Assembly: GCF_017348835.2 (NCBI RefSeq)
Contig: NZ_CP071375.1
Strand: one strand, 5' to 3'
Length of the DNA: 64,000 nt
Origin: Escherichia coli
GTDB taxonomy: Bacteria > Pseudomonadota > Gammaproteobacteria > Enterobacterales > Enterobacteriaceae
The position numbers and the translations under genes are program-made. The notes below the pieces were generated by a model, which did no database searches, had not been told where the DNA came from, and worked only from the letters and a program-made list of their open reading frames with translations. Below, in pieces: positions 2,409 through 4,779 of this stretch (its first letter is position 1; every line of letters starts with the position of its first letter).

Positions 2409-2681
2409 AACTTCTACCTTTCTACCCTGTCGTTAACGAAGCAGGCGGTGCCTGCTTTGAGGAAATTCTCACGCAGTATTGCCCGATTTTTGTTTAGTGT
2501 CTACTCATCTGACGGCATTTGCATCAGCAGTTTGCGTACCGCGCCGAAGTGTGCCATGTATCGCCTGTAACGAATTGATATTTCTCTGAACGCTGCTCGG
2601 TAAACAATAAAGAGGTGGCTGACGACGGCGCGCCTTGGCTGGATACTGCCTTCACGCAAGACAACACGGAAGACAGGGAAG

Positions 2682-3554
2682 ATGGATGCACCGAGTACTA
2701 CACCGCATGACGCGGTATTTAAACAATTTTTAATGCATGCGGAGACGGCTCGCGACTTTCTGGAGATACATTTGCCAGTGGAATTACGCGAACTTTGTGA
2801 CCTCAACACGCTTCATTTAGAGTCGGGGAGTTTCATTGAAGAGAGCCTGAAAGGACACAGCACGGACGTGCTCTATTCCGTGCAAATGCAGGGCAATCCC
2901 GGTTATCTGCATGTTGTGATTGAACACCAAAGCAAGCCGGATAAGAAAATGGCCTTTCGCATGATGCGTTATTCTATAGCCGCCATGCATCGGCATCTGG
3001 AGGCGGATCACGACAAACTACCGCTGGTAGTGCCGATTCTCTTTTATCAGGGCGAGGCCACACCTTATCCGCTCTCAATGTGCTGGTTTGATATGTTTTA
3101 CTCTCCGGAGCTGGCGCGACGCGTCTATAACAGTCCTTTCCCGCTGGTGGATATCACCATCACACCGGATGACGAAATCATGCAACATCGGCGGATTGCG
3201 ATTCTCGAACTACTGCAAAAACATATTCGCCAGCGCGACTTAATGTTATTGCTGGAGCAACTGGTCACGCTGATTGACGAAGGGTACACTAGCGGAAGTC
3301 AGTTAGTTGCCATGCAAAACTATATGCTGCAACGCGGTCATACTGAACAAGCGGATTTGTTTTATGGTGTGCTGAGAGACAGGGAAACGGGAGGGGAGTC
3401 TATGATGACGCTGGCGCAGTGGTTTGAAGAGAGGGGAAGACAGGAGGAAAGGCAAGAATTCGTCCTGCGTCTTCTGAATAAAGGAATGTCTCGGGAAGAC
3501 GTTGCAGAGATGGCAAATTTACCCCTTGCCGAGATTGATAAGCTGATTAACTAA
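2682..3554 (+). CDS. rpnC: Rpn-family (YhgA-like, transposase_31 / PD-(D/E)XK) recombination-promoting nuclease
   Basis: 290-aa ORF beginning MDAPSTTPHDAVFKQFLMHAETARDFLEIHLP, typical of the YhgA/Rpn family N-terminus; sits between panD and panC as yadD/rpnC does in E. coli. Confidence 0.85.
   Translation: MDAPSTTPHDAVFKQFLMHAETARDFLEIHLPVELRELCDLNTLHLESGSFIEESLKGHSTDVLYSVQMQGNPGYLHVVIEHQSKPDKKMAFRMMRYSIAAMHRHLEADHDKLPLVVPILFYQGEATPYPLSMCWFDMFYSPELARRVYNSPFPLVDITITPDDEIMQHRRIAILELLQKHIRQRDLMLLLEQLVTLIDEGYTSGSQLVAMQNYMLQRGHTEQADLFYGVLRDRETGGESMMTLAQWFEERGRQEERQEFVLRLLNKGMSREDVAEMANLPLAEIDKLIN
3402..3554 (+). CDS. Candidate internally initiated small protein (RpnS-like C-terminal tail of RpnC), in frame with rpnC
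   Basis: In-frame ATGATG at 3402-3407 preceded by a strong purine-rich SD-like motif GGGAGGGGAG (3389-3398); would encode about 50 aa (MMTLAQWFEERGRQ...EIDKLIN). Translation is not demonstrated. Confidence 0.35.
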   Translation: MMTLAQWFEERGRQEERQEFVLRLLNKGMSREDVAEMANLPLAEIDKLIN

Positions 3555-3823
3555 GTTGTCTGCATCATCAGTTATAGCCAGATAATTGTTATTGTTAACT
3601 GACCAGATAATTAAGGGAACCTATGGAAATAAAGACACGGAGAGAAACCAGGCAGACGTTGGCGCAGTGGTTTGAAGAGAAGGGATTTCAGAAGGGATAT
3701 CAAGAGGAACTCCAGAAGGTAAGACAGGAATTCGCCCAGCGTTTTCTAAGTAAAGGGATGTCTCGGGAAGACGTTGCAGAGGTGACAACTTTACCTCTTA
3801 CAGAGATTGATAAGCTAATTAAC
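3408..3823 (+). repeat. Diverged tandem direct repeat (about 145 bp and 168 bp copies) covering the rpnC tail-coding segment
   Basis: Copy 1 at about 3408-3551 and copy 2 at about 3656-3823 share long identical stretches (for example atgtctcgggaagacgttgcagag, ggcgcagtggtttgaagaga); copy 2 carries an extra insertion of about 24-33 bp. Confidence 0.7.
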
Positions 3824-3832
3824 TCTAACTAA
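3623..3832 (+). CDS. Stand-alone small ORF homologous to the RpnC C-terminal tail (duplicated RpnS-like module)
   Basis: 69-aa ORF (…LAQWFEEKG…GMSREDVAEVTTLPLTEIDKLINSN) with an AAGGGA SD 6-8 nt upstream; clear protein and nucleotide similarity to the rpnC 3' end. Confidence 0.5.
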   Translation: MEIKTRRETRQTLAQWFEEKGFQKGYQEELQKVRQEFAQRFLSKGMSREDVAEVTTLPLTEIDKLINSN

Positions 3833-3927
3833 ATTGCCAGCGATATGAATAATCACTTACAGACGTCATCGCCATGACGTAGGGCAAATTAATAACTGGC
3901 GCCATCAGCCGTAGCGCCAGTTAAGTA

Positions 3928-4779
3928 TTACGCCAGTTCGACCATTTTGTTGTCGATCAGGCGGGCATCGCCAAGCCAGGCGGCTACCAGAATCACAGCT
4001 CGTTTGCTGGTTTCAGAGACTTCCAGCAACGTGTCGGCATCGCGAATCTGAATATCATCGGCGCGGAAGCCTTTTTCATTCAGTTCTTGCCCGGCAATAG
4101 CAATAATTTCATCGAGATCCCGTTCGCCAGCCTGCAATTTGTCGGCAATTGAACTTAAAACTTTGTACAGACCGGGCGCAATTTTGCGTTGTTCCGCTGT
4201 CAGATAACCGTTACGGGAACTCAGCGCCAGACCGTCTTTGGCGCGCATAATTGGCACACCGACAATCTCAATATCAAAGCCCATATCAGCAACCATTTTG
4301 CGGATCAGCGCCAGTTGCTGAAAATCTTTTTCACCGAAGCAGGCGATGTCCGGCTGGACCAGGTTGAACAGCTTGCTGACAATAGTCGAAACGCCGCGAA
4401 AATGGCCAGGACGGCTGGCACCTTCCAGCATGGTGGAAAGACCAGGAACGTCAACGTAAGTGTGGGTTTCAGTACCGTTCGGGTAGATCTCTTTTACCGA
4501 AGGGGCGAAAACTAAATCCACTTTACGTTTGTTTAGCTTTTCGCAGTCTTCCTGCAAGGTCCGTGGATAACGTGCCAGATCTTCCGGGCGGTCAAACTGC
4601 ATTGGGTTAACGAAAATACTGACGACGACCACATCGGCGCGGGCTTTGGCTTCGTCGACCAGCTTCATATGGCCATCGTGCAGGTTACCCATAGTAGGCA
4701 CCAGCGCCACGCGCTTGCCTTCCATACGCAGGCGGCGAATTTGCTGACGCAGCAGCGGCAGGGTTTCGATAATTAACAC
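3928..4779 (-). CDS. panC: Pantothenate synthetase (pantoate-beta-alanine ligase)
   Basis: 283-aa [40 protein letters not shown]..., carrying the HxGH motif. Confidence 0.95.

What the first reader, a model, noticed from the sequence alone, without database searches (positions are those of the whole stretch)
2682..3832. rpnC (yadD) carries an internal RBS and start near its 3' end and is followed by a diverged tandem duplicate of its tail forming a stand-alone 69-aa ORF
Seen in sequence: (1) within rpnC, an in-frame ATGATG at 3402-3407 is preceded at canonical spacing by GGGAGGGGAG, one of the strongest SD-like motifs in the window, which would give a roughly 50-aa tail protein. (2) 68 bp downstream of the rpnC stop, a second ORF (3623-3832) with its own AAGGGA SD encodes a 69-aa protein whose sequence (LAQWFEE...GMSREDVAE...LP..EIDKLIN) and underlying DNA are a diverged direct repeat of the rpnC 3' end; the second copy has an extra FQKGYQEELQK-like insertion. 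Established knowledge, from memory: YadD/RpnC belongs to the Rpn (YhgA-like PD-(D/E)XK) recombination-promoting nuclease family, whose long forms have been reported as toxic, phage-defence-associated proteins with small C-terminal proteins translated from internal starts acting as cognate antitoxins. Inference: this locus may encode a toxin, an intragenic antitoxin and an additional free-standing antitoxin-like gene created by tandem duplication. The stand-alone copy may be unannotated in many genomes.
Basis: partly seen in the sequence, partly recalled or inferred. Interest (0 to 1): 0.7.

Follow-up and report, generated by a model that had tools for sequence, protein, structure and literature searches.

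The report
Known rpnC toxin, antitoxin, extra copy
This is the E. coli rpnC locus, a toxic nuclease gene with an antitoxin translated from inside it and, in about 29% of strains, a second free-standing copy of that antitoxin just downstream; the arrangement was published in 2023, so the finding is correct but not new.

Summary
The window is the E. coli yadE-panD-rpnC-panC-panB locus. rpnC (2682-3554) has a Transposase_31/Rpn nuclease domain. It carries an in-frame GGGAGGGGAG-N3-ATGATG start at 3402, identical to the K-12 site validated by Ribo-RET/Onc112 profiling and tagging. A 69-aa ORF (3623-3832) is 68% identical to the 50-aa tail (E 1e-23).

This is already published. Zhong et al. [quoted passage not shown] They did not test what rpnC_Ss does.

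What I add:
- The Ss junction is in 1555 of 5426 complete E. coli genomes and also in E. marmotae.
- The ORF is intact in all 13 complete-genome loci examined, although NCBI's annotation pipeline (PGAP) labels it variously as pseudogene, hypothetical protein, transposase or RpnC/YadD family protein.
- Its four-residue repeat helix almost never matches the length of the neighbouring RpnC tail. Here it is 4 units against 2, and lengths were equal in 1 of 61 sampled E. coli pairs.

Under the published repeat-number specificity rule, Ss is therefore probably not a redundant cognate antitoxin.

Novelty: already known. Interest: low.

The parts
2682..3554 (+). rpnC (yadD), full-length product RpnC_L, 290 aa: the toxic recombination-promoting nuclease
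   Evidence: ORF. Pfam Transposase_31 E 2.7e-87. TIGR01784 268.8 bits against a cut-off of 52.1. 100% identical to the annotated rpnC of E. coli PE164.
2700..3302 (+). N-terminal YhgA-like / PD-(D/E)XK nuclease domain (residues 7-207)
   Evidence: PF04754 match covering residues 7-207. The motif D62 ... E81-H-Q-S-K85 is read directly from the translation; assigning it as catalytic is an inference.
3389..3398 (+). Shine-Dalgarno-like GGGAGGGGAG of the internal translation start
   Evidence: Sequence. Identical in K-12 and the other strains aligned, apart from one G/A. One of only 5 GGAGG-N4-10-ATG sites in the window.
3402..3554 (+). rpnC_S: 50-aa intragenic antitoxin reading frame (in-frame ATGATG start), identical to the RpnC_L C-terminal tail
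   Evidence: Internal initiation and a tagged RpnC_S protein are shown for K-12 in PMC10400941 and 10.1101/520783.
3432..3455 (+). Hypervariable four-residue repeat region of RpnC_L/RpnC_S: 2 units here (RGRQ EERQ)
   Evidence: Translation. Between strains this stretch varies in multiples of 12 nt; the WFEE-to-REDVAE length is 20 to 48 residues in E. coli and 60 in E. marmotae.
3555..3622 (+). 68-nt spacer between rpnC and the small gene, including the AAGGGA ribosome-binding motif at 3613-3618
   Evidence: The junction 3555-3660 is found in 1555 of 5426 complete E. coli genomes at 93-100% identity. The spacer is nearly invariant in the sampled loci. No terminator-like or promoter-like site is predicted within it.
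   Evidence: ORF. 68% identical to the tail, E 1e-23. Matches the TIGR01784 C-terminal end at E 2.8e-8. Homologues carry PF27070 HTH_Rpn_C. Named rpnC_Ss in PMC10400941.
3680..3727 (+). Four-residue repeat region of RpnC_Ss: 4 units here (KGFQ KGYQ EELQ KVRQ), two more than in the neighbouring RpnC tail
   Evidence: TRF period-12 array at 3678-3702. Between strains the WFEE-to-REDVAE length is 24 to 48 residues.
3893..3923 (.). GC-rich 12-bp-stem hairpin between rpnC_Ss and the convergent panC: the likely shared transcript end
   Evidence: Terminator-like site called on the minus strand. Conserved in all aligned strains. A role for the plus-strand transcript is an inference.

Best explanation
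The region is the three-gene form of the E. coli rpnC toxin-antitoxin and phage-defence locus described by Zhong et al. 2023.

The parts:
1. rpnC encodes RpnC_L, a PD-(D/E)XK DNA endonuclease that damages DNA when unopposed.
2. Ribosomes also start at the strong internal site at 3402 and make RpnC_S. This is the 50-aa C-terminal helical domain on its own. It binds the same domain in RpnC_L through the long first helix and blocks the nuclease.
3. Downstream, rpnC_Ss (3623-3832) is an old partial duplication. It runs from a few codons upstream of the internal start to about 20 nt past the stop. It lost the ATGATG start and acquired its own ATG and ribosome-binding site.

What I infer about rpnC_Ss:
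- It is a maintained gene, not debris.
- It is probably co-transcribed with rpnC/rpnC_S, because nothing terminator-like separates them.
- Its first helix carries 4 repeat units against 2 in RpnC_L/S. Across strains its length does not track that of the neighbour.
- I therefore infer that it is a specificity-diverged RpnS rather than a redundant cognate antitoxin.
- Its most likely roles are a spare tail cassette that recombines with the rpnC 3' end (mosaic alleles and fusions exist), and/or a binder of RpnC variants of other lengths.

Shown here: sequence identity, homology, distribution and the length mismatch. Shown in the literature for K-12 RpnC: internal initiation, the S protein, and repeat-number specificity. 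Inferred: expression and function of Ss in this strain.
For: Identity of the locus:
- Flanking genes yadE, panD, panC and panB, and a 100% match to E. coli PE164.
- RpnC domain hits.
- Internal start identical to K-12, where it is experimentally supported.

Homology of Ss to the tail.

Fold:
- The AlphaFold2 model of Ss is all-helical: a long helix, then two short ones (pLDDT 74).
- It superposes on the crystal structure 7th0 'E. coli RpnA-S' with target-normalised TM 0.84 and rmsd 0.8 A over 41 columns.

Published description of rpnC_Ss, its loss by deletion or fusion, and the repeat-number specificity assay.

Evidence that Ss is maintained:
- Present in 1555 of 5426 complete genomes, always chromosomal.
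- Same position in E. marmotae.
- ORF, start codon and ribosome-binding site intact in 13/13 complete-genome loci, the window included. All length variation is in frame.

Length mismatch:
- 60 of 61 E. coli S/Ss pairs and 3 of 3 E. marmotae pairs differ in first-helix length.
- 26 of 61 Ss alleles are shifted by 2 residues off the 4-residue series.

Recombination between the copies:
- Ss alleles occur with an S-type C-terminus (EMANLPLAEIDKMIN).
- RpnC tails occur with an Ss-type C-terminus (P0077, ...EVTALSLAEIDKLINSN).
- K-12's tail has the Ss-like 2-codon extension.
Against: - No expression data exist for rpnC_Ss in any strain that carries it. K-12, where the experiments were done, lacks it.
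- No sigma-70-like promoter was predicted for either small gene.
- pN/pS in the non-repeat parts of Ss is 0.54 against 0.16 for S, so constraint is weaker (few sites).
- The specificity rule rests on one engineered +1-repeat pair in an overexpression SOS assay. It may not hold for natural alleles differing by 2 units and in repeat sequence.
- The mismatch is not rarer than random assortment predicts: 2.3 matches expected, 1 observed, by my arithmetic on the table. It therefore shows absence of co-variation, not selection for mismatch.
- The Foldseek E-value for 7th0 is not significant (E 2), as expected for a 46-residue target.
Confidence: 0.85

Rival explanations
1. RpnC_Ss is a second, fully cognate antitoxin. 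It adds to the RpnC_S pool and neutralises the neighbouring RpnC_L.
For: - It is a close homologue of the tail, 68% identical.
- The C-terminal two helices are well conserved.
- At the analogous rpnE locus, YpaA is 98% identical to RpnE-C and is expressed.
- One sampled pair (L055) does have equal helix length.
Against: - There are 2 repeat units in L/S against 4 in Ss here. Lengths differ in 60 of 61 E. coli pairs and 3 of 3 E. marmotae pairs.
- Many Ss alleles are 2 residues out of register with the 4-residue series.
- One extra KGIE repeat abolished neutralisation of RpnC in the published assay.
Confidence: 0.2
2. The 69-aa ORF is a non-functional remnant of a tandem rpn duplication, a pseudogene as PGAP annotates it in PE164, ETEC4067 and ATCC 25922.
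For: - PGAP notes 'incomplete; missing N-terminus'.
- No significant Pfam-A hit.
- Relaxed pN/pS of 0.54.
- About 71% of complete E. coli genomes lack it.
Against: - The start codon, the AAGGGAAC ribosome-binding motif and the open frame are kept in 13/13 complete-genome loci and in E. marmotae.
- Every indel is in frame, including a 6-nt one.
- The only broken copies are in low-coverage metagenome contigs, for example assembly coverage 1.6x (L022) and 1.2x (L048).
- PGAP itself calls intact alleles 'RpnC/YadD family protein'.
- The analogous rpnE_Ss (YpaA) is a detected protein.
Confidence: 0.12
3. RpnC_Ss acts on the antitoxin rather than the toxin (for example by heterodimerising with RpnC_S to set the release threshold), or acts as a small helix-turn-helix DNA-binding regulator of the locus.
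For: - RpnS proteins dimerise through helix 1.
- The Pfam family for this domain is named HTH_Rpn_C.
- The model resembles TrpR, DeoR and resolvase HTH domains at weak scores.
- There is a weak HTH_7 hit in the RpnC tail.
Against: - The length mismatch that argues against L binding argues equally against S binding.
- No operator-like repeat was looked for or found.
- All structural matches are non-significant (E >= 0.5).
Confidence: 0.1

Closest known systems
rpnC_L / rpnC_S / rpnC_Ss of E. coli (Zhong et al. 2023, PNAS 120:e2307382120, PMC10400941)
   Same: Same locus and same gene order. The internal start sequence is the same as in K-12. The four-residue repeat hypervariability is the same. 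The paper explicitly reports a second copy of rpnC_S downstream of rpnC in some strains, derived from rpnC, and lost in others by deletion or fusion.
   Different: Nothing structural differs: this window is one allele of that arrangement (2 repeat units in S, 4 in Ss). The paper did not test RpnC_Ss expression or function, and its main text (the only part held here) does not mention that Ss and S repeat numbers are unmatched within a genome.
rpnE / ypaA (rpnE_Ss) of E. coli K-12
   Same: An Rpn gene with an internal start, followed by a free-standing small gene that duplicates the tail. YpaA protein is detected by tagging.
   Different: YpaA is 98% identical to RpnE-C, so it is plausibly cognate. 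RpnC_Ss is only 68% identical to RpnC_S here and differs in repeat number. According to the paper's phylogeny the two duplications arose independently.
RpnA_S crystal structure (PDB 7th0)
   Same: The predicted fold of RpnC_Ss is a long first helix followed by two short helices. It superposes at rmsd 0.8 A over 41 columns, with target-normalised TM 0.84.
   Different: Sequence identity is only 24%. It was not detected by sequence search of the PDB. RpnA_S does not cross-inhibit other Rpn paralogues.
Stand-alone DUF4351 (PF14261) small proteins
   Same: Zhong et al. state that RpnS can be encoded as a separate gene, annotated DUF4351 in some species.
   Different: ORF69 gives no DUF4351 hit, and the RpnC tail only E 0.04. 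The newer PF27070 HTH_Rpn_C is the family recorded on its homologues.

Membership tests
Rpn / YhgA-like recombination-promoting nucleases (PF04754, TIGR01784) | N-terminal Transposase_31 domain | tested here: met
   PF04754 covering residues 7-207, E 2.7e-87.
Rpn / YhgA-like recombination-promoting nucleases (PF04754, TIGR01784) | Full-length match to TIGR01784 above NCBI's curated cut-off | tested here: met
   268.8 bits against a cut-off of 52.1, profile positions 1-273 of 273. It scores below the 583-bit equivalog cut-offs for RpnA and PRK09956, as expected for a different paralogue.
Rpn / YhgA-like recombination-promoting nucleases (PF04754, TIGR01784) | PD-(D/E)XK catalytic residues and DNA endonuclease activity/toxicity | not testable with these tools
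   A D62 ... E81-H-Q-S-K85 motif is visible in the translation. Activity needs the bench. Toxicity, SOS induction and nuclease activity are published for K-12 Rpn proteins.
RpnS intragenic antitoxin | In-frame internal start with a ribosome-binding site near the 3' end, giving the C-terminal domain alone | tested here: met
   GGGAGGGGAG-N3-ATGATG at 3389-3407. Identical to K-12, where Ribo-RET/Onc112 peaks and tagged RpnC_S are reported.
RpnS intragenic antitoxin | Hypervariable four-residue (12-nt) repeats beginning 8-20 residues after the initiating Met | tested here: met
   Repeats begin at residue 11 of S. Their number varies between strains in steps of 4 residues.
RpnS intragenic antitoxin | Actual translation from the internal start and neutralisation of RpnL in this strain | not testable with these tools
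   Needs start-site profiling or tagging, and toxicity assays.
RpnSs (free-standing downstream copy; rpnC_Ss) | Separate ORF with its own start immediately downstream of rpnC, homologous to RpnC_S | tested here: met
   3623-3832 after a 68-nt spacer, with AAGGGA 4 nt before the ATG. 68% identity, E 1e-23. Corresponds to the published rpnC_Ss.
RpnSs (free-standing downstream copy; rpnC_Ss) | Present in only some E. coli strains at this locus | tested here: met
   1555 of 5426 complete genomes. Absent from K-12, an O157-like strain and APEC E19019.
RpnSs (free-standing downstream copy; rpnC_Ss) | RpnS three-helix fold | tested here: inconclusive
   All-helical model at pLDDT 74. 7th0 RpnA-S matches with TMt 0.84 and rmsd 0.8 A, but the Foldseek E-value is 2 and it ranks 27th.
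Cognate antitoxin of the neighbouring RpnC_L (functional class, not a sequence family) | Same number of four-residue repeats as the RpnL it neutralises (rule from Zhong et al., Fig. 4D) | tested here: not met
   S has 2 units and Ss has 4 in the window. Lengths are unequal in 60 of 61 E. coli pairs and 3 of 3 E. marmotae pairs.
DUF4351 (PF14261) | Significant match to the Pfam model | tested here: not met
   ORF69 has no hit. The RpnC tail scores E 0.04, below significance.

The most novel reading that the evidence does not exclude
RpnC_Ss is not an antitoxin for its neighbour. It is a stored alternative-specificity cassette. Its helix length evolves independently of RpnC_L/S. Recombination between the two tail copies (fusions and mosaics are seen) swaps a new dimerisation specificity into both the toxin and its intragenic antitoxin at once. 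This would be a built-in diversification mechanism for a defence system. Alternatively, it may neutralise RpnC variants of other lengths that arrive by recombination.
Probability: 0.3. Interest if true: 0.55.

Novelty: already known. Interest (0 to 1): 0.2.

Why it matters
As a discovery it matters little. The gene-within-a-gene antitoxin of rpnC and the extra downstream copy were reported in 2019-2023.

It has two smaller uses:
1. Annotation. A conserved small gene present in about 29% of complete E. coli genomes is labelled pseudogene, hypothetical protein or transposase depending on the allele. It could be named consistently.
2. An open question. The function of the free-standing copies has not been tested. 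The observation that RpnC_Ss is almost never length-matched to its neighbour, unlike YpaA and RpnE, gives a concrete and cheap experiment on how specificity in this toxin-antitoxin family diversifies.

Tried and rejected
1. K-12's 300-aa RpnC as a simple fusion of this window's N-terminal part with this window's Ss (the lengths add up: 242 + 58 = 300). Rejected: the K-12 tail (KGIEKGIQQGRQEVSQ...VINLI) differs from both copies. A mosaic origin remains plausible, because K-12 shares the Ss-like 2-codon extension and the downstream flank.

2. Sequence search of the PDB with ORF69 and with RpnC to reach the RpnA_S structure. It found only unrelated helical or HTH proteins. The structure was reached only through the model.

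3. Pfam on ORF69. Nothing significant.

4. PADLOC. No family for RpnC, and only a weak RmrA hit (E 5e-4) on the HTH part of ORF69. Not pursued.

5. Promoter and terminator scan. No promoter for either small gene and no terminator in the spacer. The scan is crude, and internal transcription starts are reported from dRNA-seq in K-12.

6. Species-representative genome scan with the Ss 5' 26-mer. The only hit is one contig in a MAG labelled Oscillospiraceae that carries an E. coli-type locus, probably a binning error. E. marmotae copies start MDIK..., so they escaped the exact pattern and were found by protein search instead.

7. Whether mismatch is selected for. With independent assortment of the observed length distributions I expect 2.3 matches in 61, against 1 observed (arithmetic). 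There is no evidence for avoidance, only for lack of co-variation.

8. Source of the roughly 50-nt non-homologous spacer. No other copy in the window.

9. Supplementary files of the PNAS paper. Not held, so I could not check whether its Fig. S6 already shows the S/Ss mismatch.
Full report
**What is there**

The window begins with the E. coli genes yadE (795-2024, +), panD (2028-2408, -), a 290-aa ORF at 2682-3554 (+), a 69-aa ORF at 3623-3832 (+), and the convergent panC (3928-4779, -) and panB. The stretch 2600-3900 is 100% identical to E. coli PE164, where the long ORF is annotated rpnC.

RpnC carries the Transposase_31/YhgA-like domain: PF04754, residues 7-207, E 2.7e-87. It scores 268.8 bits on TIGR01784, 'Rpn family recombination-promoting nuclease', against a cut-off of 52.1.

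**Checking the observation**

The coordinates and motifs are exact.
- GGGAGGGGAG lies at 3389-3398, followed after three bases by in-frame ATGATG at 3402-3407. This gives a 50-aa product.
- GGAGG followed by ATG at 4-10 nt occurs only five times on both strands of the 64-kb window.
- The second ORF starts 68 nt after the rpnC stop, with AAGGGA four bases upstream of its ATG.
- The tail and the 69-aa product are 68% identical (E 1e-23), separated only by two four-residue gaps.
- The DNA alignment has 79% mean column identity.
- tblastn of RpnC against the whole window finds this ORF as the only other match, from RpnC residue 235. The duplicated unit therefore began a few codons upstream of the internal start.
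- Alignment with other strains shows the unit ends about 20 nt past the stop codon, at TAAGTTGTCTGC.
S reads RGRQ-EERQ. The small ORF reads KGFQ-KGYQ-EELQ-KVRQ. TRF detects a period-12 array at 3678-3702.

**What it is: already described**

- Meydan et al. [quoted passage not shown] They also reported synonymous-site conservation at the yadD site, and noted that RpnE-C is 98% identical to the separate gene ypaA.
- Zhong et al. 2023 (PMC10400941) showed several things. The small proteins (RpnS) are made, with tagged RpnC_S detected. They block the toxic, SOS-inducing, DNA-cleaving long proteins (RpnL). RpnA_S is a three-helix dimer. The first helix carries four-residue repeats whose number varies between strains. 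For RpnC, adding a single KGIE repeat to S or to L abolishes neutralisation unless both carry it.
[quoted passage not shown] It derives it from rpnC by phylogeny. It notes that rpnSs genes can be lost by deletion or by fusion with the rpn N-terminal region.
- The internal-start sequence in this window is identical to K-12's.

It is a rediscovery.

**What I could add about the free-standing copy**

*Distribution.* The junction specific to it (3555-3660) is present in 1555 of 5426 complete E. coli genomes. It is always chromosomal, and identity is at least 95% in all but two. K-12, an O157-like strain and APEC E19019 have a single copy. The same arrangement, yadE-panD-rpnC-Ss-panC-panB, occurs in E. 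marmotae with an MDIK... start. The duplication is therefore old or has been exchanged between species.

*Annotation is inconsistent.*
- Pseudogene 'missing N-terminus' in PE164, ETEC4067 and ATCC 25922.
- 'Hypothetical protein', 'transposase' or 'RpnC/YadD family protein' elsewhere.

*The gene looks maintained.*
- In 13 of 13 complete-genome loci (the window included), the start codon, the AAGGGAAC motif and the reading frame are intact. The first 19 residues are invariant.
- All length variation is in frame.
- The only three disrupted copies among 57 metagenome loci are in contigs of poor quality: assembly coverage is 1.6x for L022 and 1.2x for L048, and not recorded for L047.
- Constraint on the non-repeat parts is weaker than on the intragenic copy: pN/pS is 0.54 against 0.16, from few sites.
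- An AlphaFold2 model is all-helical at pLDDT 74. It superposes on the crystal structure of RpnA_S (7th0) at 0.8 A over 41 columns, although the Foldseek E-value is not significant for so small a target.
- Many homologues carry the recent Pfam family PF27070, HTH_Rpn_C.

**The mismatch**

I measured the first helix from WFEE to REDVAE.
- The intragenic tail and the free-standing copy differ in length in 60 of 61 E. coli S/Ss pairs, which make up 36 distinct protein pairs.
- They also differ in all three E. marmotae loci.
- In this window the values are 20 and 28 residues.
- 26 of the 61 Ss alleles carry a 6-nt deletion that puts them two residues off the four-residue series.
- If the two length distributions assorted independently, I would expect 2.3 matches, and I see 1 (my arithmetic). 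The data show no co-variation between Ss and its neighbour. They do not show selection against matching.

Because L and S share one DNA sequence, they co-evolve by necessity. Ss does not follow them. Under the published repeat-number rule, Ss should mostly fail to neutralise the RpnC_L beside it. This contrasts with ypaA, which is 98% identical to RpnE-C.

There are also signs of exchange between the two cassettes.
- Some Ss alleles have an S-type C-terminus.
- Some RpnC tails have an Ss-type C-terminus (P0077).
- K-12's tail ends with an Ss-like two-codon extension.

**Most likely mechanism**

- RpnC_L is the toxin.
- RpnC_S, made from 3402, is its obligate matched antitoxin, binding through helix 1.
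- RpnC_Ss is probably translated from the same transcript, since no terminator-like site lies in the spacer.
- RpnC_Ss is a specificity-diverged RpnS. I think its most plausible roles are donor or acceptor in recombination that reshuffles tail specificity, or binding of RpnC variants of other lengths.

These functional statements are inferences. No strain carrying Ss has been examined experimentally in the papers I could read. The PNAS supplement is not held, so I cannot exclude that its figures already show the mismatch.

**Rivals**

1. A fully cognate second antitoxin, disfavoured by the mismatch.
2. A decaying pseudogene, disfavoured by conservation of the frame, the start and the ribosome-binding site across E. 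coli and E. marmotae.
3. A modulator of RpnC_S, or a small HTH regulator, for which there is no direct support.

**Verdict**

The feature is already known and of low interest as a finding. The unmatched repeat number is a small, testable addition.

Noticed in passing
L015 (E. coli CFSAN061768, NZ_CP042973), rpnC at locus 483-1427: rpnC has a GAA-to-TAA nonsense change six codons upstream of the internal start (AGGGAAACG becomes AGGTAAACG). The nuclease loses its tail, while the rpnC_S frame and rpnC_Ss stay intact. This would be a toxin knocked out with both small genes retained. One long metagenome contig (L064) also has an in-frame stop, 160 codons upstream.
   Followed up: partly
L012 (E. 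coli ERL05-1306, NZ_CP032803), about 215 nt after the hairpin between rpnC and panC: This single-copy strain has an extra insert containing GTAAGCTCCTGGGGATT, which resembles an ERIC/IRU intergenic repeat element (from memory). It is absent from the window and from the other aligned strains.
   Followed up: no
window 3893-3923: A perfect 12-bp-stem GC-rich hairpin lies between the convergent rpnC_Ss and panC, with a T-run only on the panC side. It is conserved in every aligned strain. It is likely the panC terminator and possibly the end of the rpnC transcript.
   Followed up: partly
window 3579-3588 and 3603-3612: The spacer between rpnC and rpnC_Ss contains a 10-nt direct repeat, CCAGATAATT, 24 nt apart. 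This roughly 50-nt spacer has no homologue elsewhere in the window, and its origin is unknown.
   Followed up: partly
L075 (CALXDF010000219.1, MAG labelled uncultured Oscillospiraceae): A 4.3-kb contig in a Firmicutes MAG carries an E. coli-type rpnC_S/rpnC_Ss pair, with the same S and Ss protein sequences as E. coli loci L003, L007 and L013. This is most likely a binning or contamination error in the public MAG.
   Followed up: no
L059 (metagenome contig OYDF01005730.1), upstream of rpnC tail: The contig contains AGATGTGTATAAGAGACAG, the Nextera transposase adaptor (from memory). The apparent stop in rpnC there is therefore an assembly artefact.
   Followed up: no
P0077 (partial protein labelled Klebsiella sp. 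MAG): This RpnC C-terminal fragment has a tail that joins S-type KGIE repeats to an Ss-type end (...EVTALSLAEIDKLINSN). It is a natural example of the S x Ss fusion that the literature mentions.
   Followed up: partly
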